In this document: piece after piece, positions 820-37,425 of the stretch
Position numbering within the stretch: the stretch's first letter is position 1
Layout: the number at the start of each line of letters is the position of its first letter
Source of the DNA: Thermoanaerobaculales bacterium
GTDB taxonomy: Bacteria > Acidobacteriota > Thermoanaerobaculia > Thermoanaerobaculales > Sulfomarinibacteraceae
DNA: 51,817 bases
Assembly (NCBI GenBank): GCA_024763555.1
Contig: JANTFG010000002.1
Location: forward strand, 1-51,817
Direction: 5' to 3'
Notes under the pieces: generated by a model
Told to the model about the DNA's origin: nothing
The model's database searches: none
Seen by the model: the letters and a program-made list of their open reading frames with translations, nothing else
Made by a program: the position numbers and the translations under genes

Positions 820-1169
820 GCGGCCGGAGCCGGACTGAGAAAGAAGGCAGTTTGTTTCGAAGTGAAAAACAGGGGATGACAGAAGGCATTCTTTGTCGCA
901 AGGTCCCCTGAGTTACGCGTTGGGGTGAAATCCCCGTCAGGAATTCGAAGGCCTGGAGAATATTCTCTATCAAGAGTCAAGCACTCTCTTGGGAAATTTC
1001 CTTGGTGTCCTCGTTGTAAGAGGGGCTGTGGGAAACCTGGCGGGAGGAGCGAGGCGATCTCCCAGAAGGTTTCTGATAGGCGTCCATAGCCCCCGGAGGA
1101 CCCGGCAATTCCACAGCTCCCTCGCTTTGCGGCTTTCTCAGTCCCATACCGGGGTCCAAAGGCAGAGGG

Positions 1170-1351
1170 CCGGAGCGGGAGCGGAAGCAGGAACCGAAAC
1201 CGGAACCGGAGCAGGGAGCCGAAACCGGGGCCGGAGCCGCACATCCGGAGCCGATGCCGGAGCCGGTGCGGGCGTGGTTCTCTGAGCGGAACGAGGGTGG
1301 GATGATGGCTGTCTAATTTCCTGAACCGCAGCAGGGATCCGAGACCGGAGC
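1170..1351 (-). repeat. composite intergenic element, degenerate copy (R1): hexamer array plus conserved boxes
   Basis: The CCGGAG-type degenerate hexamer array spans 1170..1271. CCGGAGCCGCACATCCGGAGCC (1231..1252) is the reverse complement of the GCTCCGGATGTGCGG box seen at 23253..23273 and 37155..37175. CGTGGTTCTCTGAGCGGAA (1273..1291) is the reverse complement of TTCCGCTCAGAGANCCACG at 7199..7218. Confidence 0.55.
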
Positions 1352-1454
1352 GATGTCCCTCGACATTCTGTCCCGTATAGAAATTTCCATACAGAACTCG
1401 CTTGCCGAAAGGAATTTTGCTGCGATCCGCTCCCCTGTGTCATAATCTACTTCG

Positions 1455-2096
1455 ATGTCCACAGATATTCGTATCGCGTTGATCGACGACGACCAGGCAT
1501 TCCGCTCCAGCCTCCGGCTACTGATCAACGGAAGCCCCGGATACCGCTGCTGTGGAGACTGGCCCACGGTCGAGGCGGCCCTGCATTCTCCGAAACTCGG
1601 CGAAGCCGAGATCCTCCTCCTGGATATTCAGCTTCCCGGGGTGGACGGCGACGAAGGCGTCGCACTGGTGCTTGAAGCGTGGCCCGAATTGACGGTGCTG
1701 ATGTTCACAGCGCACGACCATAACCAACGGGTGTTTCGCTCATTATGCCGCGGCGCCAGCGGCTACCTTCTCAAGAACATTGCGCCCACCCGTCTGCTGG
1801 AGGCTCTGGCTGAGGCCCATGCAGGGGGCTCTCCGATGTCACCGCTCATCGCCCGCAAAGTGGTCCGCCTCTTCCGACAGACCTCCATGCCCGCTCATGA
1901 GAACCATGGCCTGACGCGCCGCGAAATCGAGATCCTGGGGCTCCTCTCAGAAGGGCACAGTTACGGGAGCGCGGCAAGCAGGCTCTGTGTCAGCATCAAT
2001 ACCATCCGTACCCACATCAGGGCCATCTATGAGAAGCTTCATGTGCATTCTCAGACCGAAGCCGTCAGCAAGGCCCTTCGGGCAGGGCTCATCTGA
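1455..2096 (+). CDS. two-component response regulator, NarL/FixJ (LuxR-type HTH) family
   Basis: It has an N-terminal receiver (IALIDDD, LLLDIQLPGVDG). The C-terminal LuxR HTH reads LTRREIEILGLLSEGHSYGSAASRLCVSINTIRTHIRAIYEKLHV. Confidence 0.9.
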   Translation: MSTDIRIALIDDDQAFRSSLRLLINGSPGYRCCGDWPTVEAALHSPKLGEAEILLLDIQLPGVDGDEGVALVLEAWPELTVLMFTAHDHNQRVFRSLCRGASGYLLKNIAPTRLLEALAEAHAGGSPMSPLIARKVVRLFRQTSMPAHENHGLTRREIEILGLLSEGHSYGSAASRLCVSINTIRTHIRAIYEKLHVHSQTEAVSKALRAGLI

Positions 2097-2166
2097 GGCT
2101 CAAGACTGACGAGAGATCCTCCGTTGGCCAAAATGCACCGAATCCTGCGCTACACAGCGAATCCCG

Positions 2167-5100
2167 TCATTCAGACTCACCGGATGGAAGTTCCACCGTG
2201 AACACCGTCCCCTCACCGGGCCTCGACCGGACTTTAATCCTCCCCTTCTGCTCGCGGACCAGCCGACGAGCAATGGCCAGACCCAGGCCCGTACCCCCCG
2301 CACCGGAGAAAAAGGGCTCGAAGACCTGCTCCTGAACCTCGGAGCTCATCCCGGCGCCGTCATCCTCCACCGAGATGAGGATGGAGTTGCCCTGATCATA
2401 CCGCCTCACCCGGACCAGGATCCTGCTTGCACCGACCGCATGGCGGGCCGCATTGTGGACAAGATTCAAGAGCACCTGGTGGATGGCCGCCCTGTCGGCC
2501 CAGACCGCAGGCAGGTCCGGCTCGACCTCTCTTTCGACAGGCAATCCAACCTCTTCGTGAACCCCGGCGCTTTCCACAAGGTGGGCTACCAGTTCGAATG
2601 GTCGACATTGAACAATGTTCAATTCGTGCGGGCGCCCGAGTTCAAGGAGATCATCGACAAGCCGGTGCATCCGGTCCGTCTCACGTTCGAGAATGCCGAG
2701 TTCCTCCCCGGTCGAAGGATTAGCTCCAAACCTCCTGCCGAGGAGGTGCGTCACCGTTCGAATGGCAAAGAGCGGATGACGAATCTCGTGGGAGACACCG
2801 GCAATGAGGCGCCCGTAGGCGGCCATCCGCTCACTCTCTCTGAGGGCGGCGATACCCTCATCAACCCTTTGTTCGAGGGTGCTGTTGATTTCAGCCAGCT
2901 CCCGGGTTCGGAGATCGACCAGTTCCTCCAGACGCTTCTGCCGGCGGCGCAAGATTCCCACTCGGCCTCGATTGGCGATCCAAACTGCAAATGCGGCCAC
3001 CAACCCCATCAGAATCACGAACCACCTTGAATCGACAAAGGCGGGCCGAAGCCTGAAGGCAATTTTCAGCCCGGGCTTGGCCCAGCTCATTCCCCGAAGT
3101 CCATTCTGGATCTGGAGAGAGTACTCCCCCGGAGGCAGACTCGCAAAATAGATCCGGCGATCCTTCTCATCAAGTTCCACCCATCGATCGTCGAGTCCAC
3201 TCAGTCGGAATCGAAAATGGAGCTGATCCCCCAGATCAAAGTCGATGCTCGAGAATTGGAGCTCCAGTTCCCCGCGCCCCGGAGAAATGTCGAGCAACAA
3301 TCCCTTACCCGGCGGTTCATATTTCCTGCCGTCCACCGCAAAACTCTCAATTTTCAGGCGCGGCGGGTCGAACACCACCTTTGCGGGATCGACCACCGCC
3401 GCACCCTCGGCAGTGGCAAACCAAAGCCTGCCCCGATGGTCTTTCCATGCAGAGGGCTGCTGACCGCCATTGCATTCTCTTCCGATCAGTCCGTCCGCGA
3501 CTCCGAGAAGACGACAGTCAACGGTCTTTCGCTCACCTGCCACCACTTTCTCAAGCTCATCCCGCCTGACCGCAAAGACGCCGTGATTGCTGCTCATCCA
3601 GAATCGCCCGCCATCGTCCTCGATCATTGAAAAAACACTGTCGTCACAGAGCCCTTCGGCGGTTGTAATGCTGATGACCCGCCCTTCGTCAAAGTGAAGC
3701 AAGCCGCCCATGTGGGTTCCGATCCATACACCGCCACGATCATCGGGAAGCACCGTCACGGCTGCGACCGGAGGCAGGCCATCCTCTTCGCCGTAGAGGG
3801 TTCCTTCGCCATCGTGCCATCGGGCAACACCCCCGAGTCCGTTCGCCAGCCACATCTCATCGCCACTCGCCCCGATCCATGTCGGGTTCATGCCGCCGAG
3901 CGACGGAACTCTTTCCAGGCTTCGGCCATCGAATCTGTAGACCGACTGCAGGACGCCCAACCAGAGAGACCCCGCCTCGTCGCGCGTCATCGACAGCACG
4001 ATGGGAAGTGTTTCGCCGAGGGAATGAAAAGCTCCCCCTCCGCCGATAAAGACACCATCGCCTGCGGTTCCAACCCAGAGCCGTCCGAGGGAATCTTCAC
4101 CGAGCGAGAGGATGTGCGTCGATTTCAAGCTGGAAACGGGTATCATCGCACCGTCGACAAAACGGTAAAGACCCCCGCCGGCAGTCCCGATCCACTGGCG
4201 ATTCCTCGAATCCTCGAACCCACAACTCACGGAAGCTACCCGCAAGCCGTCTGTCTCCGAGTAGACCCGGACCGGGGCTCGGAAGAAACGGACGAGTCCC
4301 TGATGAGCCGTACCAAGCCACAGTGTGTCATCGTCCTCGACCATCAGAGACAGGATCTGGACCGATTCCCAGGCGCCCCCGGGATGCCAGCTCTCCAGAC
4401 CTCCTTCAGCGCCGGCTCGGACAATGCCTCCCCGAAGATATCCGACCCAGACTGAGCCCTCCTCATCACAGAGCATCGCCCCGACGCGGGCCCCCGAAAA
4501 ACGTTCCGGCAGCTCCAGACGCCTGAGATCGTCCGTCCCGGAGGACATCCAGATATCGCCCGAAGAATCCGCGGCCCAGAGTGTGCCACGGCTGTCGAAG
4601 GCAACATGGGTAAAGGTGTCCTCACCCTCTCCCGTGGGGAAGGGTTTCCGGATATGCCAACTCCCCCCAACCCGGCAGCGGACCGAGGTTCCGGCCGCAC
4701 AAAGGACCTCACCATGCTCGGTCAGAGAGGAAAACCATTCCTTTCCGGAACTGTCAGCTTTGGCCACTGATTTTTCAACGCGGAAGACTCCCTCGGCCGA
4801 GCCGATCCAGACCGTCCCGGTATGATCGACAGAGAGGGTCTGGCCCCTGCCCAGCGATTGGTCCGCTTCAGTGAGAACCTCCACAAAACCCTGCCGGTTT
4901 CCGCGATAGAGAGCATGACCGGTGAGCACCCACAGCCTATCGTGATCTGAAGCCAGGGCGATGACACTGCCGTCTCGAAGTCCGCTCCGGGAGACGAGCG
5001 CAATAGACTCGAAACGCACACCATCGAAACGCGCCAGTCCCTCTTGAGTGCCCACCCAGATATAGCCGTCCGAGCTCCGTGCAACTGCCGTCACCGAGTC

Positions 5101-5487: not shown

Positions 5488-6855
5488 ATGTTCCGCTCAA
5501 CATGGTGCCCCAACAGACTCCTGGTTCTCTTTTTCGCTATCGGCACCCAGACCGTCGCCCTGTCCGTCCCGGCAGCCTTACTCATTGTCGATCGTTTCGA
5601 CGACGCCCCCGAGGCCACGGCCTGCCTTCCTGAAGTCTCCCCCGACTGCAGCCTGCGGGGCGCCATCATCCATGCGAACCAGGATTCGGACAGCGACGTG
5701 ATTCGCCTGTCCGCGGGTACCTACACTCTGAGTACCGTCGGTATCCTGGAGGATGCCGCAGCGACAGGCGACCTGGACATCACCGAAGCCGTAGAAATCC
5801 AGGGCGAGGCCGGCGTGGTCATCGACGCCAACGGCCTCGACAGGGTTTTTCATTTCCTCGGCAATCATAATTCCCGGCTTTCGGACCTCACGATCAGCGG
5901 AGGCGTCACCTACGCCGGATTTACGGATGTGGGGGGAGCGGGTCTTCTGAATGACGGGGCATACATATCCCTGACTCGATGCACGGTGACGGAGAACTCG
6001 ACCCACGAACTCGGAGGGGGCATCTACAACCGCGGCGGGTGGATCGACATCCAGGACAGTCGAATCACAAAAAATGACTCTGAGACCCATGGCGGAGGAA
6101 TCTTCAACCAGGCTGGATCGACGATTACCCTGGTCGATTCGACTCTGGACCTCAACGTCTCCCATGGCGGAGGGGGTGGAGGTCTTTACAACAATGGAAC
6201 TGCCACCCTGTCCCGCACCAGTATCTATTCCAACCAGACCCACCAGGGTGCGAGCCATTCGCACGGAGGAGGAATCTACAATGTCGAGATTATAAATGTC
6301 TTTAACTGCTCCATCCTGACGAACCTCGCCTATAACGACAGCGGCGGAGGAATATTCAATGCTGATCGCGCCACCCTCCAACACGTGTCCATCGACGGAA
6401 ACTACGCCACTTCCGGCAGGGCCCTGGCCGTCGGCGCTTCAGCCTCGACAACCATTTCGAACACCCTGATCGTCGGGGACTGCAGCAGCGAGGGAGGATC
6501 GACATCAAGCCTCGGCAACAACATCGAATCACCAGGGAACACCTGTGGTTTCAACATCATCGGCGATATCCCCTTCGTTCAGGATGCGAGAACCATAATC
6601 GAATCCTACGACGGCGGAACAGGCAGAGTTCTGGCCCTGCTCCCGGGCAGCATCGCGATCGATAACGCCAAACCGGAGAGATGCACCATGGACTACGATC
6701 AGCGTAACTTCAGTCGACCGATCGACGGAACCGGCGAGGGCGAGAGCGTCTGCGATATCGGCGCCTATGAATTCCTGGCCGAAGGTCCGATTTTCAGTGA
6801 CGGTTTTGAAACCGGCAGCAGCAGTCTCTGGTCCCATACTACGACCGGTTCATAG
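5488..6855 (+). CDS. secreted right-handed parallel beta-helix repeat protein (choice-of-anchor Q-like N-terminus)
   Basis: It has a signal peptide and a CSLRGAIIHAN motif followed by IRLSAGTYTL. Repeated GGGI(Y/F)N turns are typical of beta-helix repeats. Confidence 0.7.
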   Translation: MFRSTWCPNRLLVLFFAIGTQTVALSVPAALLIVDRFDDAPEATACLPEVSPDCSLRGAIIHANQDSDSDVIRLSAGTYTLSTVGILEDAAATGDLDITEAVEIQGEAGVVIDANGLDRVFHFLGNHNSRLSDLTISGGVTYAGFTDVGGAGLLNDGAYISLTRCTVTENSTHELGGGIYNRGGWIDIQDSRITKNDSETHGGGIFNQAGSTITLVDSTLDLNVSHGGGGGGLYNNGTATLSRTSIYSNQTHQGASHSHGGGIYNVEIINVFNCSILTNLAYNDSGGGIFNADRATLQHVSIDGNYATSGRALAVGASASTTISNTLIVGDCSSEGGSTSSLGNNIESPGNTCGFNIIGDIPFVQDARTIIESYDGGTGRVLALLPGSIAIDNAKPERCTMDYDQRNFSRPIDGTGEGESVCDIGAYEFLAEGPIFSDGFETGSSSLWSHTTTGS

Positions 6856-6894
6856 CGGGCGAAGTCACGAAGGGTATGAGCTGAGATATCCCAA

Positions 6895-7296
6895 CCGGGC
6901 CCGGAGCAGGAGCAGGAGCAGGAGCAGGAACCGATTCCGGAGCCGGACCCCTCAGCCGAGAGACAAAACTGAGACGGCAAAGTCGTACTCGAACTCGTCG
7001 AAACATCCCACGAAGCCACCTGCCTTCCACCGGAGCCGGGACCGGAGCCGATTCCGCGGCCGGATGCCACGACCGAGAGGCGATACCGGGCCTGCGGATT
7101 CGTACTCGCAGTGGTCGGAACAGCCCACGATCACACCGGGCTCGGCCACCGCCTCCCTGCTCCGGTTCGGGATACCAGGGCGGCCCCCGGCCCACGTATT
7201 CCGCTCAGAGATCCACGGCCGGCCCTGCTCCGGTTTGCCGCTCCGGCTCCGGCATCGGTTTTCCGCTCCTGCTCCGGATTGCCGCTCCGGATCCAG
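6895..7296 (+). repeat. composite intergenic element, most complete copy (R2): inverted hexamer arms, tandem core
   Basis: (GGAGCA)x4 lies at 6903..6926. The left arm 6915..6946 is a near-perfect reverse complement of 7243..7275. Core copies lie at 6955..7020 and 7071..7165. The TTCCGCTCAGAGATCCACGG box is at 7199..7218. The 7030..7167 stretch is about 85% identical to 23080..23217 by hand alignment. Confidence 0.85.
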
Positions 7297-7304
7297 GGAC
7301 AGAC

Positions 7305-8057
7305 TCAGACCGGAATCAACTCCACCCGCCTTAATTCAGCGGCGAGGATCCGATCCAGGCGCCCCCGGGTATCGCCTCGCCTCAGGGCGGCGGCGATTCC
7401 CCGGGCCTCCTTCTGCCGGAGATCATCCACCTTATTGAGCAGCACCAGGACCCGCGCCGTCTCCGGTACTTTGGCCAGGTAGGCTTCGGGATGATGGACG
7501 ACCGCCGCAACATCCTCCGCCGTGATTCGGCTGCCCATCGGCAGTCCAAGACGCTCTGAAAACAGCGCGGCACGATGCACGGCACGATCATCAAGCTCTG
7601 CGCCGAGACAGTCGATGCCGATGACGAGGATCACCAGCTCCGATTTTGAGGGGATCACCGGCTCGCGGGCGGCGTGGGCCTTGAGCGATCGCCCGGCCGC
7701 ACCGTCGGCCTCGACCAGGATGAGATCCGCCGGAAGCTCCTCCGCGATGAGATCCACCTGTCCCGGCTCGAGCCCGATGAGCTTCTCTCCCGGCAGGATC
7801 TCGCGACCGAGAGTGATCTGCCCCTCCTCGCGGAGCTGCCCTTTCAGTTTCCCGATCCATGCGGAGAATTCCCCCTTAAGAAGAATCGTCTTCAAAACTG
7901 AAGGCGGGGGCACGCGGATCTTTGTCGTGGTTGTACTGATGACGGTTCTGCCCGCAGCACGGGCCTCCCGGGCCAGCGCAAACATCAGCGTGGTCTTGCC
8001 TCCCCCACCGATGATGCTGATCAGGCGCCCCGGGCCGAGGGCTTCGAGGAGAGTCAT
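7305..8057 (-). CDS. yqeC: selenium-dependent hydroxylase accessory protein, YqeC family
   Basis: The N-terminal P-loop-like LISIIGGGGKTTLMFALA, the overall length and its position beside a YqeB-like gene all match the YqeC family. Confidence 0.75.
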   Translation of the reverse strand: MTLLEALGPGRLISIIGGGGKTTLMFALAREARAAGRTVISTTTTKIRVPPPSVLKTILLKGEFSAWIGKLKGQLREEGQITLGREILPGEKLIGLEPGQVDLIAEELPADLILVEADGAAGRSLKAHAAREPVIPSKSELVILVIGIDCLGAELDDRAVHRAALFSERLGLPMGSRITAEDVAAVVHHPEAYLAKVPETARVLVLLNKVDDLRQKEARGIAAALRRGDTRGRLDRILAAELRRVELIPV

Positions 8058-9418
8058 CGCATCCGGGAGTGGAAGTGCCGCATCACGGCCCCCAGGCAGG
8101 CGCCCCCGATGTTCCGCCCCTTCTCGGAGATCCGGCTGCAGAACTCCACCCGACCCCTGGGATCGACGTCGCCGATCTTCTGGCCCTTCCTCACCACGTA
8201 GCCCGGGTGAATCAGACCCCGGATGACCCCGGAAATCAATGTCCTGACGGGAAGTTCTCCCACCCGGCCCAGCTCCTGACCCGCCTCAACCAGATCACCG
8301 ATCCCGGAGGCGGCATCGAAGATTCCGTCTCCGGGAGACCTGAGTACCCGATCGGCCGTATGCCCGGCAATGGTGCCCGGCGTGTGGGTATTGGGCTGCG
8401 CCGGACCCTGCTCGATCAGACGGGCGAGATCGTGGCCGCGATTGGTTTCGATCACGAGATCGACGTCCTCAGCGGCTATAAAACCCGGGCCCAGTGCGAT
8501 CACCAGCTCGGCCTCATCGAAGAAGGACCCCTCGTTCCGTTTGAGCAGGCGGGCGTCGATGATGACCTCCGGGCGCAGACGACGCGCAGTCTCGCACTCG
8601 GGGTCGATCAGGACCGGAATGAATCTTCCCCGGAAATCCCGAAGCTCACCCGATTCTTCAAGGCTGAAGGCCCGGGCGGGCACTCCCTCGACCTCCACCT
8701 CGCCCTCCTGGATCGCCGTGGCGAAGGCGACGAGGCGCCGGATGGTCGTCGGTCTTTCAACATCGGTCATCATGACTTCGAAACCACTGGTGAAAAAACG
8801 ATGCGCCACGGCCGAGGCGATCTCCCCCGCCCCCTTGATCAGGATTCTCGGAAAACCGCCGAAATCTCCCGGATGGTCGAGATCCTCGACGACTCCCGGC
8901 TCATCAACCGGGATATCCAGGACATCCTCCGAATGAGCCCTGAGGATCTCCCGGGCGCCCACATCGCCCCGCTGACTGAGCAGCTCCTCCCTGAAGCTTC
9001 GGGCCATCAGCACCGGGTGTCCCGCCTTTCCCCGGAAGGAGGGGCGGGCGATTCCCCTGTCACTCCGAGAGAACTCATCGATCAGCCGATGCAGGGTGGA
9101 AACGCTGAGATTCGGCATGTCGGCCAGGGCGATGAGGTAGGCGTCCACATCCTCCGGAGCGGCCAGAATACCCGCCCGCATCGAGGAGGCCATGCCCTCT
9201 TCAAAGTCCGGATTGACGACGAGATCACATGCGACCGGGCCGTCGGGCCAGCTGAATCCCGGCTGCACGACCAGACTGAGGCCGTTAATCCGCGCCGAGG
9301 AGATCAGCGGAAGGAGGGCACGGTAGAGCACCCGCTCACCCCGGATTTTTATCAGGAGCTTATCCCGGCCCATGCGCTCAGAAGTCCCGGCGGCAAGCAG
9401 AATGGCGTGGATCTTCAA
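8054..9418 (-). CDS. fusion protein: MobA/MocA-like molybdenum cofactor nucleotidyltransferase plus YqeB-family selenium-dependent Mo hydroxylase maturation domain
   Basis: The N-terminus IHAILLAAGTSERMGRDKLL is a MobA-like NTP transferase. The C-terminal half (ILIKGAGEIASAVAHRFFTSGFEV ... KGQKIGDVDPRG) resembles the YqeB family. It overlaps yqeC by 4 nt. Confidence 0.75.
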   Translation of the reverse strand: MKIHAILLAAGTSERMGRDKLLIKIRGERVLYRALLPLISSARINGLSLVVQPGFSWPDGPVACDLVVNPDFEEGMASSMRAGILAAPEDVDAYLIALADMPNLSVSTLHRLIDEFSRSDRGIARPSFRGKAGHPVLMARSFREELLSQRGDVGAREILRAHSEDVLDIPVDEPGVVEDLDHPGDFGGFPRILIKGAGEIASAVAHRFFTSGFEVMMTDVERPTTIRRLVAFATAIQEGEVEVEGVPARAFSLEESGELRDFRGRFIPVLIDPECETARRLRPEVIIDARLLKRNEGSFFDEAELVIALGPGFIAAEDVDLVIETNRGHDLARLIEQGPAQPNTHTPGTIAGHTADRVLRSPGDGIFDAASGIGDLVEAGQELGRVGELPVRTLISGVIRGLIHPGYVVRKGQKIGDVDPRGRVEFCSRISEKGRNIGGACLGAVMRHFHSRMR

Positions 9419-9430
9419 GATCAGAGCCTC

Positions 9431-10915
9431 CTAGCGGTGTGCACCCGTCCCGCTCAGCTCCTCGCTCGTCCGGATGTGCGCAATGAATCGCTCCGAAAGA
9501 CGCTGAACGTCCCGCATCACCTCATCGGGCCTGGTGCCGTCCGCAAAGGGAAGGATCTTCCCATTCTCCTTGAGGATTCGGCCTGAAGCCACGACGGTAC
9601 TGATCTCGGATCCATCGGCCGCCCAGATCAGGTTCTCCACGAGGTTGTCCACCCGGGTCGGGATGAGGTTGGGCCGGTTGAGATCCACCAACACCCAGTC
9701 CGCCTGCCGTCCGGGGGCCAATTCGCCCTGGTTCAGCCCGAGAATCGCGGAGGGGACGACGGTGATCATCTCCATCAGCTGCTGCGCCGGCATCAGGGTG
9801 GCGTCCTGGTGCAAGGCCTTCTGATACTCGGCCGCCAGGCGGGCGGCGTTGAGAATATTCTGATTATCCGCCGAGCCGGAACCGTCGGTGGAGATCGCCA
9901 CCGGGATACCGGCTGCCATCATCTCGATGACGGGGGGCATGCCCGAACCCAGGATGGTATTGGCCAGGGGGTTATGCACGACCCGGGTCCCGGTGCGGGC
10001 GAGAATCTCGAGATCGGCGGGTCCGCAGTTGACCTGGTGCGCCAGCACCGTCTTCTCATCGAGAATCCCGATGGCATCGGCGTACTCCACCGGAGTCATC
10101 CCGGGCTCGATCTCTTCGGAAAACCAGCGGGTGGTATTGGGCTCCTCCGCACTGTGGACGTGAAAGAGCGTGCCGTGCTCCCGGGCCCATCGCTTGAGGG
10201 GAATCAGCTGCTCGCGGCTGTTGGAAAAGAGCTGGTCCGGACCGGGACAGAAGCTGGTGCGTTTCAGGCCCTCGAGCTTCAGGGCCTCATCGAGACGTTC
10301 GACGGCCTCTCCCGGGCTGTCCAGGACCTCCTCGACGTAGAATCGATCCTGTCCGCCGACGGCCACGATCATCGTGGTGCCCGCCGCCTCGTTGGCCTGA
10401 GCGATCTCCTGAAGGTAGTACTTGTTGAAATTGCAGTGGTGCACCATCGAGGCGGTGATGCCGTAGTGAATGTCGACCAGGCGCGCCATGCGGTAGACCG
10501 CCAGCTGGGGCACACAACCCAGCTCTTCACTCAGTTCCTCCCTCCGGCTCCGCATGAAGCCGGTGAAGGGATTGACGGCGTGGTCCAGCCAGGCGGTCAG
10601 GGCCTGGTCCTTGGCGATCCCGATCAGGGGCTGTTCATGGTCGTGCCCGTGGGCCTTGACGAAGGCCGGCAGGAGTACGGCGTTGATCATCGGAATCTCG
10701 TCGGCCAGGGGATCGCCCATCACCTCCAGCGCGGATCCGTAGTTTTCCTCAAGCCTCCGGCCGATCTCTTCGGTGAAATGACCGACTTCGAGGATCTCCT
10801 CGCCCTCGGCCAGCACATAGCCGTCCTCGATCCGCTCGGAGCGATCGGGCTCAGCAAAGGGCAGAAGGTAGCGGGCCCTGCAGAGGAGAAAAGGGCCTTT
10901 CTTCGGCGCCGGCAT
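9431..10915 (-). CDS. metal-dependent amidohydrolase (SsnA / guanine-deaminase-like)
   Basis: The layout is amidohydrolase-like, with an HxH motif (KAHGHDH), HVHSAE, and ISTDGSGS with an Asp near the C-terminus. The exact subfamily cannot be decided without a search. Confidence 0.75.
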   Translation of the reverse strand: MPAPKKGPFLLCRARYLLPFAEPDRSERIEDGYVLAEGEEILEVGHFTEEIGRRLEENYGSALEVMGDPLADEIPMINAVLLPAFVKAHGHDHEQPLIGIAKDQALTAWLDHAVNPFTGFMRSRREELSEELGCVPQLAVYRMARLVDIHYGITASMVHHCNFNKYYLQEIAQANEAAGTTMIVAVGGQDRFYVEEVLDSPGEAVERLDEALKLEGLKRTSFCPGPDQLFSNSREQLIPLKRWAREHGTLFHVHSAEEPNTTRWFSEEIEPGMTPVEYADAIGILDEKTVLAHQVNCGPADLEILARTGTRVVHNPLANTILGSGMPPVIEMMAAGIPVAISTDGSGSADNQNILNAARLAAEYQKALHQDATLMPAQQLMEMITVVPSAILGLNQGELAPGRQADWVLVDLNRPNLIPTRVDNLVENLIWAADGSEISTVVASGRILKENGKILPFADGTRPDEVMRDVQRLSERFIAHIRTSEELSGTGAHR

Positions 10916-10917
10916 CT

Positions 10918-14588: not shown

Positions 14589-14628
14589 AGAACCTTCCCA
14601 TCCACGCCGGACCGATCGACGTCGAGAT

Positions 14629-16827: not shown

Positions 16828-17325
16828 ATGATGTTCTGGAAAAAATATGCTGTTTCAATCGTGGCTTTCGGTGTTCTGGTCACCGCCTGCTGCTTCACCG
16901 CCGATATGGCCAATGCCGCCGAAGCGATCGCGAGCGGAGAAACAAACTGGGACGGAGTGACGGTGAATGTCATGAGCGTCGTCCGCAAGGGCCGGGTCCT
17001 GACTGTCAAGTTCGCCGCAGTGAACGAGGGAGAGACGGAGCAGACGGTCGGTTTCGGTTTCACCGGAAAACAGAACTCATGCTACGCCGTGGATGAGGAG
17101 AGCGGCACGAAATACTATGTGTTGACCGACAAGGAAAATCATCCCATCGCATCGGCCGATGAATTCGTCGGCAATGGTGCACGGGGACTGAAGAGAGCGA
17201 TCCAGCCCGGAAAGACACTGCGTGTATGGATGAAGCTCCCGGCGCCGCCGCCCGATGTCAAGACCATTTCTCTCTTTCTCAACGAAACGGAGCCCATTGA
17301 AGATGTGCCGATCACGGACAAGTAA
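16828..17325 (+). CDS. small secreted hypothetical protein
   Basis: It has a signal peptide (MMFWKKYAVSIVAFGVLVTACCFTADMANA). GGGGAGG lies just upstream of the ATGATG at 16828/16831. No family is recognised. Confidence 0.55.
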   Translation: MMFWKKYAVSIVAFGVLVTACCFTADMANAAEAIASGETNWDGVTVNVMSVVRKGRVLTVKFAAVNEGETEQTVGFGFTGKQNSCYAVDEESGTKYYVLTDKENHPIASADEFVGNGARGLKRAIQPGKTLRVWMKLPAPPPDVKTISLFLNETEPIEDVPITDK

Positions 17326-18097
17326 CACAGCACCCGGCCCGGTACTCCTGGTGTTCCTGGTCCTGATTCTCGGATGCGGCGCTTCCCCGCACGACGCCCA
17401 ATCCCCTCAAGGCCCGGGAGCACAAGATGGGCAACAGCTCGCAGCCGTTGAATCCTCCAGTCCGGAAGCAGAGCAGAGCCTCAGCCCACCCGCTTCTCCC
17501 GCTTCTCCCGCTTCTCCCGCAAAGGCCTTGATCAACTGGGAGGATCCCGAGCCGCCGGAAGCTCAGGCCCTGGCCGAATCCCTCGTCGCCGAGCCCTTCA
17601 ACGAGGACAAGACGAGCCGCCTCGTCATGCACATCACCACGCTGCTCAATCAGACATCAGGAATCGAGGGCTTTGCCACGAGCCTGAGCCCGAAGGCAGC
17701 CACGCTTGCGGATCGTCTCGACGCCCTTCAAGCCGAGGAAAGCGAAACCGAGATCAGGATCCGACTCTCAGGCGCCATCCTTTTTGACTTTGACTCCTCA
17801 GCAGTTCGCCCCGATGCCGAAAGAACCCTGGGCGAACTTCTTGAGATATTCAAGAGCTTCCATGATCGTCCCATCCGAGTCGAAGGGCACACGGATTCCA
17901 TCGCCTCGGAAAACTACAACCAGAAACTCTCCGAAGAAAGGGCACAATCCGTGGCCCGATGGTTGATCGCTCATGGAGTTCGTCAGGGAAGAATCAAAAC
18001 CCTCGGTTACGGCGAAAGCCGTCCCCTTGCCGATAACACAACTGCCGAGGGCCGCCAGAAAAATCGCAGGGTGGAAATCATCATCGAGAAGAAATGA
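17303..18097 (+). CDS. OmpA-family lipoprotein (peptidoglycan-associated)
   Basis: The C-terminal OmpA-like domain reads RVEGHTDSIASENYNQKLSEERAQSVARWL ... NRRVEIII. A lipobox LILGC lies in the N-terminal signal. The start is set at ATG 17303, which overlaps the upstream gene. Confidence 0.8.
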   Translation: MCRSRTSNTAPGPVLLVFLVLILGCGASPHDAQSPQGPGAQDGQQLAAVESSSPEAEQSLSPPASPASPASPAKALINWEDPEPPEAQALAESLVAEPFNEDKTSRLVMHITTLLNQTSGIEGFATSLSPKAATLADRLDALQAEESETEIRIRLSGAILFDFDSSAVRPDAERTLGELLEIFKSFHDRPIRVEGHTDSIASENYNQKLSEERAQSVARWLIAHGVRQGRIKTLGYGESRPLADNTTAEGRQKNRRVEIIIEKK

Positions 18098-18155: not shown

Positions 18156-18495
18156 ATGTCCTTCCTTGCTCCCCTGTGGGATGGACGGAAAGATGAATAT
18201 CACGCTCTGGATTTTCAGTCCCGGCGAAGGACCCCGGTCATCGAAAACCGTCTCTGAGTCGAATCGAAATCTCCTTTCCCGACCCCGGTTTCGGCATCGG
18301 TTCCGGCACCGGAGATGCGGCTCCTGCTCCGGTATGGGTTTCCGTGTAGCGCTTGGCTCCGCCCGCGAAGTCGACGTCCACCTCAGGCTTTTGCAATCCA
18401 TCGGGACGGTTGATCGTCAAAAAGCCACCAAGGCCGTTGAGCTTTTCGACCGCGTTCGGGCGATGACCTGGAGGTTGTTGCATCCACGGCGGTGA
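18156..18495 (+). pseudogene. decayed four-helix-bundle protein gene (23S rRNA intervening-sequence protein family) interrupted by a repeat array
   Basis: The C-terminal fragment FRVALGSAREVDVHLRLLQSIGTVD...VELFDRVRAMTWRLL (18343..18495) matches the family consensus around IA.GS..E...HL.LA..LG. An N-terminal fragment GRKDEYHALDFQSRRRTPVIEN (about 18186..18251, different frame, ending at a TGA stop at 18258..18260) resembles FPKEERYGLTSQLRRAAVSIPSN. About 50 nt of array sequence lies between the two fragments. Confidence 0.45.
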
Positions 18496-18550
18496 GGGGC
18501 CGCAGCCGGAGCCGGATCCGGAGCAGCAACCGGCACCGGAGCCGGTGGGA
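18284..18550. repeat. paired repeat arrays (R3) flanking the four-helix-bundle gene fragment
   Basis: The left array 18284..18335 (..CCGGCACCGGAGATGCGGCTCCTGCTCCGG) is GCTCC-type. The right array 18497..18548 (CCGGAGCCGGATCCGGAGCAGCAACCGGCACCGGAGCCGG) is the GGAGC type of opposite polarity. Confidence 0.6.
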
Positions 18551-18551
18551 T

Positions 18552-18750
18552 CGTGGTTCTTTTAGCGGATTGCGGGAGCGATGATCGCGGTTTCTGTTGC
18601 TGAAACCCGAACAGGGAGGCCGTTGCCGGAAGCTAAGCGGTCGTGGGAATTCCGACCACTGCGAGTGTGATTCTGTCGCCTCAGCCTCGCCTCCCGGGCG
18701 TCAGACCGGGCTCCGGAATCGGTTACGGTTGGCGGCTCCCGATCCGACTC
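18552..18750 (-). repeat. composite intergenic element, inverted copy of the core (R4)
   Basis: The reverse complement aligns with 7050..7218. Shared blocks are CCGATTCCG..GCC, GGAGGCGA, ACTCGCAGTGGTCGGAA, CCCACGA, CCTCCCTG.TC.GG.TT and TCCGCT.A.AGA.CCACG (18552..18570). Confidence 0.7.
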
Positions 18751-18764
18751 CTCGATTCGCTGCT

Positions 18765-19178
18765 TCAAACTGCCCGGGTCTTCAGTCCCGCCTGGGTCGC
18801 TGCTGCGAGCTGGCGCCTGTCCGATGAGACAAAAAGCTCTGCGCCCCACTCTACGGCACAGGCAACATGAAGCGCATCGAGCGTTCGTACCGGGACTCCC
18901 TCGAGAATACTGATCGCTGACAAAATGACCGCTGTCGTCAGTTGAACGATATCCGCGTCACGAACATCCTCCATCAATCGCCGCTTCGCCAAGGCGTACT
19001 GAGTCTGCGTCAACGATCCATCACGACGGCGTCGATTCATGGCAGATACCAATTCGGGAACACACAGGACGGCCAGACCGATTTCGGAAGCATCGAAACA
19101 GATGGACTCGACCTCCTCGGATCCTTCTTCGTCCACAAAGCGCTTCGCGAAGGAAGAAGAATCAAGAAAAATCTTCAT
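18765..19178 (-). CDS. vapC: PIN-domain ribonuclease toxin (VapC-like)
   Basis: MKIFLDSSSFAKRFVDEEGSE starts with the PIN acidic residue. A conserved D lies in VRTLDALHVA and the fragment FVSSDRRQ is present. The start is set at the internal ATG 19178. It overlaps the antitoxin gene by 17 nt. Confidence 0.8.
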   Translation of the reverse strand: MKIFLDSSSFAKRFVDEEGSEEVESICFDASEIGLAVLCVPELVSAMNRRRRDGSLTQTQYALAKRRLMEDVRDADIVQLTTAVILSAISILEGVPVRTLDALHVACAVEWGAELFVSSDRRQLAAATQAGLKTRAV

Positions 19179-21045: not shown

Positions 21046-21149
21046 ACCGACCTCCGTGTTTTTCCCAGTCTAACAGGAAAGACCGGGACGGGAAAAGCTC
21101 AGGTACTGAAGAAGTCATTGCGCCGTGGGTCGGTTTGAGGCGGCTTCTC

Positions 21150-22792: not shown

Positions 22793-23035
22793 GCACTTCC
22801 CCACCCGAACTCTCAACAAAATTGAGAGCTGGAAAAATGACGCCGGAAACAGCGCTCACACACTGCCGTTGGGATGACCGGAAGCGCCTTTGAGCAGTCG
22901 ACTCCGGACTCACCTGCTCCAAGCCGGCCGGAATTCTCTTTCTCTGCATCTCCCTGGGGACAAACAGATCAGACGGAGCCGGAAAGCGGAAGGAAAGTTC
23001 CAGCCACTTCGGGAGCCGCAAATCGCCAAACGGAA

Positions 23036-23330
23036 CCGGGGCCGGATCCGGAGCAGGAGCCGCCAGCTGAATCCGCTTCCGGAGCCGGGGACCGGAGCCG
23101 CTTCAGCGGCCGGGTGCTGCGCCCGAAAGGCGAAACTGAGCCTGCAGAGTCGTACTCGTCGTGGTCGAAACAGCCCGCGATCACACCGGGATCCGCCACC
23201 TCATCCCTGCTCCGGTTTCAGACATCAATGCGCCGCCCGGCCCACGGATTCCGCTCCGGATGTGCGGCTCCGGGATCCGATTCTTGCTCCGGATTACCGC
23301 TCCGGTATCGGATTACTTCTCCGGCCCCGG
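23036..23330 (+). repeat. composite intergenic element, full copy (R5)
   Basis: It has a perfect 11-nt terminal inverted repeat: CCGGGGCCGGA at 23036..23046 and TCCGGCCCCGG at 23320..23330. The core 23080..23217 is about 85% identical to 7030..7167. The GCTCCGGATGTGCGGCTCCGG box is at 23253..23273. Confidence 0.85.
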
Positions 23331-23355
23331 ATCGTCGCCCCGAAATCGCTGCCTC

Positions 23356-25062
23356 TCACTCAGACTCCGACCCGACCACTCCCGCCTCTCCACTTCCCCT
23401 GGGGTCTGTTGCCGCCTCCATTGAACCGTCGGCTTCCCTCCGGACGGCCTGGACCAGCCCGACCGCCCTGGTCGAGGAAGTCTCCAGACCGCGGGAGCGG
23501 ATCACGGCTATCGTTTCCGGAGACAACGCACCCTCCTCGGCAAAGAGCCGATCGGGCAGCCACTGGTGGTGAATCCGGGGCGCATCGACAGCCGCCTGCA
23601 GATCTTCACCGTCAACAATGAGATGAAGCAGCACCTGCAGGGTGCCTGTTGGAATCCTGGAACCTCCCGGAGCACCAAGCACGATGAGATCCCCCTCATC
23701 ATTCCAGGCAATCGTCGGCGACATCGAGGAGAGCATTCTTCTTCCCGGAGCGACCGCGTTGGCCTCGCCCTGGATGAGTCCAAACTGATTCGCTTGCCCT
23801 GGGGCCGTGGCAAAATCATCCATCTCGTTGTTCAGCAGAAAACCCGCCTCCGGCACCAGGAGGCCACAGCCGAAGTTCCCGTTGAGCGTCGTCGTCAGGC
23901 TGATGGCGCCGCCTTCGCCATCAATGATTGAGAGATGGGTCGTCTCGGACGACTCCCTCCCCGGTGGAAGCTCGATGCTTCGGACGACGGCGGAGGGTGT
24001 CGACTTCGCGAGCGAGATTTCTCCTGCCAGGCGCTCCATCCTCTGTGGCAGGAGCAAGGTGGAGACATCAGCCCGGGTCGAGGCAGGATCACCCAGCAGG
24101 TAGCGATCGGCGAAGGCCCGTTTCCAGGCCTCGGCAAGCAGCATCATCCGGTCGGCGCCCCCTTTCGGAAGACCTGCATAGTTCTTGCCTTCCAGCAGTG
24201 CCGAGCTTTCGGCCAGGATGAGTCCCCCGGAAGACGGAAGCCCCATCGACGCCACATGCCAGCCGAAGGCGTCGAAACCCAGGCTCTTCCTCCAGACCGG
24301 CCGGTAGGTTTCGAGATCTTGAAGGCTCAGGATCCCTCCATGGCGAGTTGATACTCTCACCATGGCCCGCGCGACTTCCCCGCTCATGATGGCATCGGGG
24401 CCCCGATCGGCATAGGCCTGGAGGGTGCGGGCCAGGGCAGGCAAGCGGATCATCCGGCCGGCTTCCGGCGCCCTCCCCTCAGGTAGCCAGACCCGCCGAC
24501 TTTCCTCGAAGGCCCTCAAGAACACGGCATCTTCACTCCCGAGCAGCCGGGCAAGGTGGGCCGACACCGGAAAGCCATCGCGGGCGAGGCGGATCGCCGG
24601 GGCCACGACCCGGGCCCATCCCAGGCGTCCGAAGCGACGGTGCAGCTCAAAGTAGCCGCGCGGCGAGCCCGGAATTCCTGCGGCCAGTGGACCCAGGAGA
24701 GAGGCCAGCGGTTTGGGCGAGCCCTCAGGACCGAGGTACATGCCGGCCGAAGCCTCCGACGGCGCCGTTTCCCTGAAATCCAGGCTGGTGGTCCGGCCTC
24801 TCATTCGGATCACCGCAAAACCTCCCCCACCGAGGTTTCCCGCGTTGGGGTAGACGACAGCTAGCACGAGGGCCGCCGCCACCGCTGCATCAGCAGCGTT
24901 GCCTCCCGCCTTCAGGATGGAAATCGCAGCATCCGTGGCTTCCCTCGCCTGGGTTGCCACGGCCCCTCCATGACCCCGCCGGGCCGGGGGATCGGCCGCA
25001 GGAACAGGTCGGCACAGGGATAGAAGCAGGATGAGAGGCAGCAGGCTCCGAAGAATCTTCAT
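23356..25062 (-). CDS. ggt: gamma-glutamyltranspeptidase
   Basis: GNLGGGGFAVIR, LDFRETAP and the catalytic-Thr region SETTHLSIIDGEGGAISLTTTLN are present. The start is set at ATG 25062 (MKILRSLLPLILLLSL signal peptide). Confidence 0.9.
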   Translation of the reverse strand: MKILRSLLPLILLLSLCRPVPAADPPARRGHGGAVATQAREATDAAISILKAGGNAADAAVAAALVLAVVYPNAGNLGGGGFAVIRMRGRTTSLDFRETAPSEASAGMYLGPEGSPKPLASLLGPLAAGIPGSPRGYFELHRRFGRLGWARVVAPAIRLARDGFPVSAHLARLLGSEDAVFLRAFEESRRVWLPEGRAPEAGRMIRLPALARTLQAYADRGPDAIMSGEVARAMVRVSTRHGGILSLQDLETYRPVWRKSLGFDAFGWHVASMGLPSSGGLILAESSALLEGKNYAGLPKGGADRMMLLAEAWKRAFADRYLLGDPASTRADVSTLLLPQRMERLAGEISLAKSTPSAVVRSIELPPGRESSETTHLSIIDGEGGAISLTTTLNGNFGCGLLVPEAGFLLNNEMDDFATAPGQANQFGLIQGEANAVAPGRRMLSSMSPTIAWNDEGDLIVLGAPGGSRIPTGTLQVLLHLIVDGEDLQAAVDAPRIHHQWLPDRLFAEEGALSPETIAVIRSRGLETSSTRAVGLVQAVRREADGSMEAATDPRGSGEAGVVGSESE

Positions 25063-34463: not shown

Positions 34464-34483
34464 TTCTCACCTCTCATATCTTG

Positions 34484-36955: not shown

Positions 36956-37224
36956 TCGGGGCCGGAGTCCGGATCCCGTTGCTGCTCCCGCCCCTGCCGC
37001 TTCTCCGGCTCCGGCCTCGGTTTGCCGTTTCGGATCTCAAGACATGCTCAGCGACAGTGAAGGAAGCAGGATCAGAATCAGCGGCAGTCTCAGGCGCAAT
37101 GCGCGTTCAGCCTGTTCCATTCAGGAACCCACCAACGCGTCGGCCCCGGATTCGGCTCCGGATGTGCGACTTCGGCCCCGGCTCCCTGCTCCTGCTCCTG
37201 CTCCTGTTCCTGCTCCGGCCCCGG
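36956..37224 (+). repeat. composite intergenic element, copy with weak core (R6)
   Basis: The ends TCGGGGCCGGA (36956..36966) and TCCGGCCCCGG (37214..37224) form a 10/11 inverted repeat. The GCTCCGGATGTGCGACTTCGG box is at 37155..37175. (CTCCTG)x3 at 37189..37206 is the reverse-complement hexamer of (GGAGCA)n at 6903..6926. Confidence 0.6.
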
Positions 37225-37425
37225 CGCCAGACCTGACATGGTGTGAATCTCGCAGCGATTGGCATGACGAGTTCCGGAAACCCTTTGTTCACGGCAATGC
37301 TCCGGGGTAACATGCTGCTGATATCTTTCGCAACCAATTCATGCACCAGGGCTTGCGCAGAGCACAGTGTCCTCTCAGCATCATCCAGTTTCCGGCCGAA
37401 GGGAGGATGAGCTACACTGTTCGGC

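What the first reader, a model, noticed from the sequence alone, without database searches (positions are those of the whole stretch)
6895..7296. Type copy of an unannotated composite intergenic element family (inverted hexamer arms around a conserved core)
The 450-nt gap between two convergent genes is filled by a structured element.
- Left arm: it is rich in CCGGAG/GGAGCA hexamers, with (GGAGCA)x4 at 6903..6926.
- Arm pairing: positions 6915..6946 are a near-perfect reverse complement of 7243..7275 in the GCTCC-rich right arm. By hand I count about 30 of 33 positions plus a 2-nt indel.
- Core: between the arms lie two diverged tandem core copies (6955..7020 and 7071..7165). Both contain TCGTACTCG...GTCGRAACANCCCACGA.
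- Box: TTCCGCTCAGAGATCCACGG follows at 7199..7218.
- Other copies: related sequences occur at 23036..23330 (+), 18552..18750 (-), 1170..1351 (-, degenerate) and 36956..37224 (+), with arrays at 18284..18548.

That is six loci, roughly 1.8 kb in total, within 52 kb. All are intergenic, and the window contains no transposase. The architecture is not a CRISPR array, because it lacks a regular repeat-spacer unit. It does not look like REP/BIME, ERIC, BOX or Correia-type elements as I know them. The two candidate explanations are a MITE-like non-autonomous mobile element, or a transcribed long-hairpin RNA resembling an rRNA intervening sequence.
Basis: seen in the sequence. Interest (0 to 1): 0.8.

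Follow-up and report, generated by a model that had tools for sequence, protein, structure and literature searches.

The report
Lineage-specific mosaic intergenic repeat family
The stretch is one full copy of a modular, non-coding repeat found in several gaps between genes of an uncultured bacterium; it resembles the mosaic repeats and miniature transposons of other bacteria, matches no catalogued family, and varies between two closely related strains.

Summary
Window 6893-7296 has GGAGCA/CCGGAGC-rich arms in inverted orientation, two tandem core units (117 nt apart, 71% identical) and a conserved box. Related copies lie at 1141-1345, 18285-18793, 23031-23387 and 36958-37225, which makes five loci rather than six.

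- **No catalogue match.** Nothing matches Rfam or Pfam. The one valid protein-library search, with the 76-aa ORF, found nothing. Exact-pattern scans of the genome, metagenome and viral collections also found nothing.
- **Not coding.** The core shows no codon-position bias, and one copy carries a frameshift and a stop.
- **Weak structure signal.** RNA-structure evidence is weak and does not favour either strand.
- **Related strain.** Contigs from a strain with 90-97% identity in shared blocks carry the same modules in different combinations. The core is present or absent at orthologous sites, one partial copy sits in the opposite orientation, and arm arrays differ. Element loci coincide with three of four synteny breakpoints and with most short-read contig ends.
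- **Overlap with genes.** Element homology reaches about 10 codons into flanking genes. It includes the stop codons of YqeC, GGT and a PIN gene, read in different frames.

Best reading: a lineage-specific, non-autonomous mosaic intergenic repeat that works like BIME/REPIN or MITE elements. It fails the defining tests for REP (palindromic unit); no MITE-type target-site duplication could be found. Mobility itself is not shown. This is a new member of a known kind, of modest interest.

The parts
6831..6892 (.). Outer left flank. It holds the terminal motif GTCCCATAC (6831-6839) and overlaps the last codons and the TAG stop (6853-6855) of the 455-aa gene 5488..6855(+).
   Evidence: GTCCCATAC occurs only twice in the window, at 1141 and 6831. 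Both lie just outside a left arm and in the same orientation.
6893..6950 (.). Left arm: (GGAGCA)x4.5 followed by CCGGAGCCGGA-type units.
   Evidence: Tandem repeat at 6903-6929, 100% matches. Inverted pairs I1, I2 and I6.
6946..7029 (.). Core unit 1, the more diverged and 5'-shortened unit.
   Evidence: nhmmer core profile, E = 4.9e-19. Direct-repeat family D1.
7029..7062 (.). Internal arm segment (ACCGGAGCCGGGACCGGAGCC...) between the two core units.
   Evidence: Direct-repeat family D3 and inverted pair I3.
7062..7165 (.). Core unit 2. It holds two short hairpins, CGAG..GCGA..CYG/CRG..TCGT.CTCG and GTGGTCG/CGATCAC, and ends in CCTCCCTGCTCCGG.
   Evidence: nhmmer, E = 3.2e-27. Consensus folds. 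Pair counts.
7153..7234 (.). Box module (B). It holds TTCCGCTCAGAGATCCACGG at 7199-7218 and is bounded by the junction ...TCCCTGCTCCGG.
   Evidence: nhmmer B profile, E = 2.6e-19; seven further full or partial copies in the window and the related strain, plus the window-strain duplicate L011.
7219..7296 (.). Right arm: GCTCCGG-type units with 13-25 nt spacing, complementary to the left arm.
   Evidence: Direct-repeat family D2 and inverted pairs I1-I6. Tandem repeat at 7246-7294.
7297..7331 (-). Outer right flank. On the minus strand it reads AGGCGGG (7331-7325) ... GTCTGAGT (7310-7303). It contains the TGA stop (7307-7305) and the last ~9 codons of YqeC.
   Evidence: The flanks of this copy, the 23031-23387 copy and the 18494-18793 copy align.
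1141..1345 (+). Partial copy c1: terminal motif, arm and box module. It ends right after GCAGGGA and has no core.
   Evidence: Independent Logan assembly L011 covers 1242 onward.
18285..18340 (.). Separate arm-type array in the same intergenic gap as c4.
   Evidence: Covered by independent assembly L017.
18494..18793 (+). Copy c4, in the opposite orientation to the type copy: arm, box, one core, inverted arm and an outer motif that overlaps the PIN gene stop (18765).
23031..23387 (-). Copy c3, 76% identical to the type copy over 267 nt: arm, one core, box, arm and an outer motif that overlaps the GGT stop (23356).
36958..37225 (.). Locus c5: two arm arrays (36958-37036 and 37140-37225) between divergent genes. 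It has no core or box in this strain, but the related strain has a core fragment here.
   Evidence: L015 1-81.

Best explanation
Window 6893-7296, or about 6831-7331 with its outer motifs, is a full-length copy of a lineage-specific, modular intergenic repeat. Its core is tandemly duplicated.

**Modules**
- Short outer motifs.
- Arms made of irregular arrays of CCGGAGC/GGAGCN units, in inverted orientation.
- A box module of about 80 nt.
- A core of about 100 nt with two small hairpins.

**How it most likely works**
- The element is non-coding DNA and encodes no mobility protein of its own.
- Copies sit in gaps between genes. They most often abut or overlap the 3' ends of genes, and can supply a gene's last codons and its stop codon.
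- Module content and arm length change through recombination between arms and through replication slippage. A transposase encoded elsewhere in the genome may also move the elements.
- The loci therefore act as hot spots of structural variation between strains.
- Any read-through transcript would carry a long imperfect hairpin, so incidental effects on transcript ends are likely.

**Shown:** the family, the modules, the inverted arms, the lack of coding signal, the overlap with stop codons, and the strain-level turnover at breakpoints.

**Inferred:** the mode of spread and any effect on RNA.
For: - **Family and modules.**
- **Inverted arms.** They are present in all three full copies.
- **No known family.** Rfam gave nothing. 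Pfam gave nothing on the element ORFs. The 76-aa ORF had no hit in 1.84 billion protein representatives.
- **No coding signal.**
  - Variable core columns fall 6 / 10-12 / 8 on codon positions 1 / 2 / 3. I tallied these by hand from the alignments.
  - Copy c4 carries a 1-nt deletion and an in-frame stop.
  - Gene callers placed no gene on element parts in six Logan contigs.
- **Turnover in the related strain.** Shared blocks are 90-97% identical.
  - Downstream of GGT the arm and box are kept at 97%. Homology then stops exactly at ...GGAGCAGGGA, the same point where c1 ends. Four other genes replace the core and the GGDEF gene. Another arm array sits at the far junction.
  - Downstream of YqeC there is instead a partial copy in the opposite orientation. 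It abuts a HAMP gene whose TAG stop lies inside the arm.
  - Locus c5 carries a core fragment in the related strain but not in the window.
- **Assembly breaks.** Five contig ends fall in arm arrays and a sixth in a core fragment (L015).
- **Outer motifs.** They are shared by unrelated gene ends and read in different frames.
- **Precedent.** Species-specific multicopy intergenic families occur in a deltaproteobacterium. They include direct repeats of 6-42 nt and families that insert into genes without causing frameshifts (PMC2996986). Modular or ORF-overlapping MITEs are also described (PMC4596501 and PMC5896051).
Against: - No target-site duplication, clean empty site or near-identical pair of copies was found, so transposition is not demonstrated.
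- Copies within the genome are 66-77% identical, which argues against recent bursts of spread.
- Only about 52 kb of this strain and about 51 kb of the related strain could be examined, so copy number per genome is unknown.
- The arm and box downstream of GGT are 95-99% identical between strains, while most of GGT is 87-94%. This could mean selection on the element. However, the adjacent 3' end of GGT is equally conserved, and the right arm of c5 is only 85% identical.
- The type copy itself has no independent assembly support.
Confidence: 0.6

Rival explanations
1. It is a structured RNA element. This could be a 3'-UTR stabiliser or terminator, or an sRNA precursor. The arm-arm hairpin and the two core hairpins would be the selected features.
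For: - The type copy folds far better than shuffles, with z = -6.0 and -4.2.
- Two compensatory pair changes occur in the core hairpins: columns 24/33 (CG to TA) and columns 50/69 (GC to CG).
- Several copies lie directly after stop codons.
- No canonical terminator follows YqeC in the window, whereas the related strain has one where the element is not adjacent.
- MITE-derived sRNAs are known (PMC5896051).
Against: - There is no Rfam match.
- The other full copies fold only marginally better than shuffles, with z = -1.3 and -2.4.
- Arm mismatches show no strand bias between G-T and A-C, and many are transversions.
- The core hairpins disagree on strand. Hairpin 1 is paired at 91% versus 93% on the two strands. 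Hairpin 2 is 91% versus 77%. The outer stem is 69% versus 85% in the opposite sense.
- Locus c5 lies between divergent genes, and some copies lie upstream of genes.
- Modules come and go between strains.
Confidence: 0.15
2. The elements are recombination sites of a dedicated system that swaps gene blocks, in an integron-like or site-specific fashion. The ...CCGGAGCAGGGA junction would be the crossover point.
For: - Two independent copies (c1 and the related strain's GGT copy) end exactly after CAGGGA.
- In the related strain, the arm plus box and an inverted arm array bracket a 3.7-kb block of four different genes. In the window the same positions hold the core and the GGDEF gene.
- Three of four synteny breakpoints lie at or next to an element locus.
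Against: - No integrase or recombinase family was hit in either strain's contigs.
- The genes between elements are ordinary housekeeping genes in mixed orientation, not promoterless co-oriented cassettes.
- A further indel (sulfatase plus PMT_2) has no element at its ends.
- Two shared end points are too few to exclude chance or ordinary homologous recombination between dispersed repeats.
Confidence: 0.1
3. It encodes a small protein: the minus-strand ORFs 6952..7149 (65 aa) and 22969..23199 (76 aa), which share the sequence MA[ED]PGVI.GC.DH.EY[ED]SAG.VSP[LF]GR.
For: Two copies keep an open frame from a GTG with a similar N-terminal sequence, and a GGGAGG-like motif lies upstream.
Against: - The GGGAGG motif lies only 2 nt from the GTG.
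- Copy c4 has a frameshift and a stop in this frame.
- Variable sites show no third-position excess.
- Searches of 1.84 billion protein representatives and of Pfam returned no hit.
- No gene was called there in any assembly.
Confidence: 0.03
4. It is an assembly artefact: a chimeric join or collapsed repeats in a metagenome-assembled contig.
For: Short-read contigs break inside the arms. The type copy has no independent assembly.
Against: - Independent Logan assemblies of the same strain reproduce parts of c1, c3, c5 and the 18285 array at 99.9-100% identity.
- A second strain carries homologous modules at 97-100% identity where the loci are orthologous.
- The two tandem units of the type copy are only 71% identical, so they are not a collapse artefact.
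Confidence: 0.02

Closest known systems
BIME / REPIN (mosaics of REP sequences in Enterobacteria and Pseudomonas; PMC2817692, PMC3116915)
   Same: - Composite intergenic elements built from short repeated units in inverted orientation, separated by conserved linker motifs.
- Located mostly at the 3' ends of genes and between convergent genes.
- Form long hairpins.
- Species-specific and non-coding.
   Different: - The arm unit here is a 6-7-nt motif (CCGGAGC) in irregular direct arrays. It is not a 20-40-nt palindrome with a GTAG head.
- No RAYT gene was seen.
- The spacer between the arms (about 290 nt, with box and core modules) is much larger.
Bacterial MITEs, especially modular ones: BrickBuilt of Porphyromonas gingivalis (PMC4596501) and QMITE1/QMITE2 of Coxiella burnetii (PMC5896051)
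   Same: - 150-500 bp, non-autonomous, with inverted ends.
- Carry internal tandem repeats (BrickBuilt).
- Occur in large and small versions, overlap annotated ORF ends, and track genome rearrangements between strains (QMITEs).
   Different: - No target-site duplication and no defined termini were found.
- The inverted ends are low-complexity arrays rather than unique terminal repeats.
- No near-identical copies were found.
Multicopy intergenic nucleotide sequences of Geobacter genomes (PMC2996986, PMC2700814)
   Same: - The host is deltaproteobacterial.
- The families are species-specific, and some are direct repeats of 6-42 nt filling intergenic regions.
- Several families cluster in the same gaps.
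- One family inserts into genes without causing frameshifts.
   Different: - The sequences are unrelated. CCGGAGC, GCTCCGG and GGAGCAGGAGC are absent from the held supplementary alignments.
- Those families are not described as arm-box-core mosaics.
Correia/NEMIS (Neisseria) and ERIC/IRU (Enterobacteria)
   Same: Inverted-repeat intergenic elements that are co-transcribed with neighbouring genes. Their hairpins affect mRNA processing. This comparison rests on my own knowledge of these families.
   Different: Those are single compact palindromic units of 100-160 bp. Correia elements have TA duplications and IHF sites. None of these features is seen here.

Membership tests
REP / BIME / REPIN | The basic unit is a 20-40-nt imperfect palindrome, usually with a conserved GT(A/G)G head. 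| tested here: not met
   Arms are direct arrays of CCGGAGC/GGAGCN units with 6-25 nt spacing. Individual units are not palindromic. Only whole arms are mutually inverted.
REP / BIME / REPIN | Units occur in alternating orientation, separated by conserved linker motifs. | tested here: inconclusive
   Three full copies have two inverted arms around conserved modules. Copies c1 and c5 do not.
REP / BIME / REPIN | A cognate RAYT (IS200/IS605-like) transposase gene is flanked by the repeats. | not testable with these tools
   None was seen in 52 kb of the window or about 51 kb of the related strain. The rest of the genome is not available.
MITE | Terminal inverted repeats. | tested here: met
   Arm segments of 14-29 nt are 76-95% complementary in the type copy, c3 and c4. 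They are low-complexity, and the exact termini are undefined.
MITE | Target-site duplication flanking the element. | tested here: inconclusive
   I inspected the flanks by eye and saw no matching direct repeat outside the outermost shared motifs. The element ends cannot be fixed without an empty site.
MITE | Insertion polymorphism: filled versus empty orthologous sites, or near-identical dispersed copies. | tested here: inconclusive
   Modules are present or absent between strains at c3, c5 and the YqeC locus. No clean empty site was found. Copies within the genome are only 66-77% identical.
MITE | Small (<~600 bp) and without a coding capacity of its own. | tested here: met
   Copies are 200-500 bp. 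There is no coding signal and no protein-family hit.
Any Rfam RNA family | A score at or above the family's gathering threshold. | tested here: not met
   The whole-window scan found only tRNA-Sec and tRNA-Ala. The permissive scan of 6850-7310 gave only chance-level hits: best E = 0.21, 22 bits against a threshold of 90.
CRISPR array | Regular repeats of 24-48 nt separated by unique spacers of similar length. | tested here: not met
   Tandem Repeats Finder shows irregular periods of 6, 12, 18, 19, 25 and 32 nt and no repeat-spacer unit.
Integron attC sites | An IntI integrase with co-oriented promoterless cassettes, each followed by an attC site. | tested here: not met
   No integrase family was hit. 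The genes between elements are housekeeping genes in mixed orientation, 5-14 kb apart. The R'/R'' core sites were not specifically searched.

The most novel reading that the evidence does not exclude
The elements are sites of a previously undescribed recombination or processing system. One version has a defined junction (...CCGGAGCAGGGA|) at which gene blocks are exchanged between strains. Another has the arm hairpins as purpose-built 3'-end modules that supply stop codons and transcript ends to many unrelated genes.
Probability: 0.08. Interest if true: 0.65.

Novelty: new member of a known kind. Interest (0 to 1): 0.3.

Why it matters
If the reading holds, this adds a new, unusually modular family to the catalogue of bacterial interspersed repeats, from an uncultured lineage with no close genome. 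Its nearest relatives among GTDB species representatives share only 63-69% amino-acid identity in a conserved enzyme.

- **Practical value.** The arms break short-read assemblies and mark strain-level rearrangement points, so knowing the family helps binning, scaffolding and strain tracking for this lineage.
- **Biological value.** It offers a small natural experiment in how repeats remodel the C-termini and stop codons of unrelated genes.

It does not open a new mechanism unless a dedicated enzyme or RNA function is found.

Tried and rejected
- **Exact-pattern scans.** The core pattern TCGTACTCGN5GTCGRAACANCCCRCGA found nothing in genome contigs or metagenome contigs. The box pattern GCTMARAGANCCACGN9GCTCCGG found nothing in metagenome contigs or viral contigs.
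- **Distant relatives.** Six MAG loci around the XDH-like gene (63-69% amino-acid identity, L001-L006) carry no element by blastn or nhmmer.
- **Chimeric protein queries.** A six-frame chimeric query of the core and a chimeric query of flanking proteins both returned nothing. The second should have found the window's own proteins, so this query design does not work. The negative result therefore carries no weight.
- **Replacement search.** I replaced with a full HMMER search of the 76-aa ORF against 1.84 billion representatives, which gave no hit, and with Pfam, which also gave none.
- **Plasmid search.** blastn against plasmids found only low-complexity (GGAGCA)n matches.
- **Consensus scans.** No promoter or terminator consensus lies inside the type element. 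The c3/c4 region gave only background-level sites outside the elements.
- **Selenocysteine recoding.** I considered recoding of the TGA stops next to the arms, because the window carries tRNA-Sec. I rejected it because the read-through frames are low-complexity junk and the TGA positions are not conserved between copies.
- **CsrA-sponge idea.** I considered the GGA-rich arms as a CsrA sponge and rejected it, because the GGA arm is paired with its complement.
- **Selection test.** Between-strain identity gave mixed results.
- **Sample accessions.** SRR19843167 and ERR14788039 appear in no held paper.

Full report
**1. The observation**

The sequence is as described.
- Positions 6903-6929 are (GGAGCA)x4.5 at 100%.
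- The left arm pairs with the right arm. Positions 6929-6947 pair with 7242-7260 (19 nt, 95%), and 6915-6930 pair with 7260-7275 (16 nt, 88%).
- The 411-nt stretch folds into one long hairpin closed by the arms. The z-score is -6.0 on the + strand and -4.2 on the - strand against 100 dinucleotide shuffles.
- Two units, 6915-7025 and 7032-7142, lie 117 nt apart and are 71% identical.
- The box is at 7199-7218.
- Related sequence is found by blastn at 1167-1340, 18285-18751, 23032-23342 and 36958-37255.
- nhmmer profiles place four core copies and four box-module copies in the window.
- CCGGAGC and its complement occur 53 times, against about 15 expected from base composition. The excess lies in these loci.
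- This makes five loci, not six. The copy at 1141-1345 has arm and box but no core. The locus at 36958-37225 has arm arrays only.

**2. Context and source**

- The window is a whole contig of 51,817 nt from an NCBI record.
- The type copy lies between the convergent genes 5488..6855(+) and 7305..8057(-). The first encodes 455 aa with no Pfam hit. The second is YqeC, the first gene of a selenium-dependent molybdenum-hydroxylase-type cluster.
- A tRNA-Sec gene lies at 49088-49186.
- No transposase or integrase family was hit in 38 ORFs.
- The nearest genomes among GTDB species representatives share only 63-69% amino-acid identity in the 954-aa XDH-like protein. Two are labelled Deltaproteobacteria MAGs; the other titles name other taxa. 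None carries the element.

**3. Is it a known family?**

- Rfam gave nothing at gathering thresholds across the window. At the type copy a permissive scan gave only chance-level hits.
- Exact-pattern scans for the core and the box found nothing in the genome, metagenome or viral collections.
- blastn against plasmids found only low-complexity matches.

**4. Is it coding?**

- Two copies keep a similar minus-strand ORF (65 and 76 aa).
- A third copy has a 1-nt deletion and a stop in that frame.
- Variable core columns are spread 6 / 10-12 / 8 over codon positions 1 / 2 / 3. I tallied these by hand from the alignments.
- The 76-aa ORF has no hit in 1.84 billion protein representatives, and no element ORF hits Pfam.
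- Gene callers placed nothing on element parts in the Logan contigs.
- My two chimeric queries to the large protein index returned nothing even for the window's own proteins, so they are uninformative.
- I reject the small-protein reading.

**5. Is it a structured RNA?**

- The arms pair in all three full copies.
- Copies c3 and c4 fold only slightly better than shuffles, with z = -1.3 and -2.4.
- Arm mismatches show no bias towards G-T on either strand, and many are transversions.
- The core holds two short hairpins that are kept in most copies. They carry two compensatory changes among five copies.
- The hairpins disagree on strand.
  - Hairpin 1 is paired at 91% versus 93% on the two strands.
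  - Hairpin 2 favours the type copy's + strand (91% versus 77%).
  - A possible outer stem favours the other strand (69% versus 85%).
- With five sequences there is no statistical power. The data fit conserved DNA palindromes as well as RNA.

**6. A related strain**

The cluster members of window proteins led to Logan contigs from two runs.
- SRR19843167 contigs are the window strain itself, at 99.9-100% identity. They independently confirm 1242-3057, 8937-12732, 20480-23104 and 34285-37094, and reach about 18378 past the OmpA-family gene.
- ERR14788039 contigs (L008, L009, L010, L015, L016) are a related strain, 90-97% identical in syntenic blocks.

The comparison shows the following.
- **(a) Downstream of GGT.** The arm and box are kept at 97%. 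Homology stops exactly after ...GGAGCAGGGA. Four different genes replace the core, the left arm and the GGDEF gene. Another arm array lies at the far junction, just before homology resumes. The window's partial copy at 1141-1345 ends at the same CAGGGA point.
- **(b) Downstream of YqeC.** The related strain has a canonical terminator, then a partial element in the opposite orientation. That element abuts a convergent HAMP gene whose TAG stop lies inside the arm.
- **(c) At the c5 locus.** The related strain has a core fragment joined directly to the arm with no box. The window has no core there, and the arm arrays differ.
- **(d) Breakpoints and contig ends.** Three of the four synteny breakpoints lie at or next to an element locus (7423, 14687 in the related strain, and 23204). 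The fourth (21093) carries an arm array in the related strain. Six contig ends fall inside element sequence. A further indel (sulfatase plus PMT_2) has no element at its ends.
- **(e) Between-strain identity of orthologous parts.** The c3 arm and box are 95-99% identical, against 87-94% for most of GGT. The c4 arm is 100% identical. The c5 right arm is 85% identical. This is mixed and gives no clear case for selection.

**7. Element ends overlap genes**

- Reading inward from outside, the flanks of the type copy (YqeC side), c3 (GGT side) and c4 (PIN side) share AGGCGGG. After 20-30 nt comes a TGA, then GTCTGAGT or GCAGCGAWT, then the arm.
- AGGCGGG occurs about once per 3.7 kb on that strand. 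GTCTGAGT occurs three times in the window, two of them at these stops. GCAGCGAWT occurs three times, two of them here.
- The shared DNA is read in different frames. In YqeC it reads ...RRVELIPV*. In GGT it reads ...EAGVVGSESE*, and in the PIN gene ...QAGLKTRAV*.
- The element therefore appears to supply the last codons and the stop of unrelated genes.
- A second outer motif, GTCCCATAC, occurs only twice in the window, both times just outside a left arm (1141 and 6831). The fuller form CAYACCGGGGTCCAAAGGCAG is shared by c1 and a related-strain copy at a different locus.
- Not all copies sit at 3' ends. Locus c5 lies between divergent genes, and some copies lie upstream of genes.

**8. Interpretation**

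- The best-supported reading is a lineage-specific, non-autonomous, mosaic intergenic repeat.
- It works like BIME/REPIN mosaics and modular MITEs: inverted repeat blocks around conserved linkers, tolerated in gaps and at gene ends, prone to recombination and slippage, and marking rearrangement points.
- It is not a member of those families.
  - The arm unit is not a REP palindrome.
  - No RAYT gene, target-site duplication, empty site or near-identical copy was found.
- Copies are old, at 66-77% identity, so recent transposition is not indicated. Module shuffling by recombination between arms explains the strain differences at least as well.
- Precedents exist.
  - G. bemidjiensis has species-specific multicopy intergenic families. 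They include direct repeats of 6-42 nt and a family that inserts into genes without causing frameshifts (PMC2996986). The motif here is absent from that paper's held supplements.
  - BrickBuilt is a modular MITE with an internal minisatellite (PMC4596501).
  - The Coxiella QMITEs overlap ORFs, come in large and small versions, and track rearrangements (PMC5896051).

**9. Verdict**

The family is real and uncatalogued, but neither mobility nor an RNA function is shown.
- Novelty: a new member of a known kind.
- Interest: modest, 0.3. A dedicated recombination or RNA-processing role remains possible at low probability. It would need a complete genome, many more copies and transcript-end data.

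Noticed in passing
window 49088-49186 (-), 49257-49332 (+), and 7305-14639: A tRNA-Sec and a tRNA-Ala gene. A selenium-dependent molybdenum-hydroxylase-type cluster is also present: YqeC, a MobA-like NTP transferase, an amidohydrolase, a 954-aa XDH-like subunit and an FAD subunit.
   Followed up: partly
L008 5974-9645 versus window 25193-25076: The related strain carries a 3.7-kb insertion (sulfatase plus PMT_2 glycosyltransferase) between the EamA and GGT genes. No repeat element lies at either end of it.
   Followed up: partly
window 7305-7423 versus L009 7454-7587: The last ~40 codons of YqeC diverge sharply between two strains that are otherwise 94% identical here. The window's 455-aa gene (5488-6855) has no counterpart within 90% identity in the collection.
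   Followed up: partly
window 18238-18483 (-): An 81-aa ORF reads through the 18285-18340 arm-type array, giving the tail ...HTGAGAASPVPEPMPKPGSGK.... It has no Pfam hit and is not called in the independent assembly L017. The array may be tolerated as a coding low-complexity tail, or the ORF may be spurious.
   Followed up: partly
window 17489-17520: (CCCGCTTCT)x3.6 is a coding repeat: the SPPASPASPASPA linker of the OmpA-family lipoprotein 17303..18097. It is unrelated to the element family.
   Followed up: yes
window 18765-19217 (-) and upstream; L008 16943-17579: A PhdYeFM-PIN toxin-antitoxin pair lies directly next to copy c4. The PIN gene's stop codon and last ~9 codons lie in sequence shared with other element flanks.
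   Followed up: partly
L008 end, and the starts of L009, L010, L011, L013 and L015: Short-read (Logan) contigs of both strains end inside arm arrays or core fragments. The family is therefore a practical cause of assembly fragmentation in this lineage.
   Followed up: yes
(tool behaviour): Concatenated multi-protein queries joined by X runs return no hits from the search for homologous proteins, even for proteins known to be in the collection. Negative results from such queries are therefore not evidence.
   Followed up: yes
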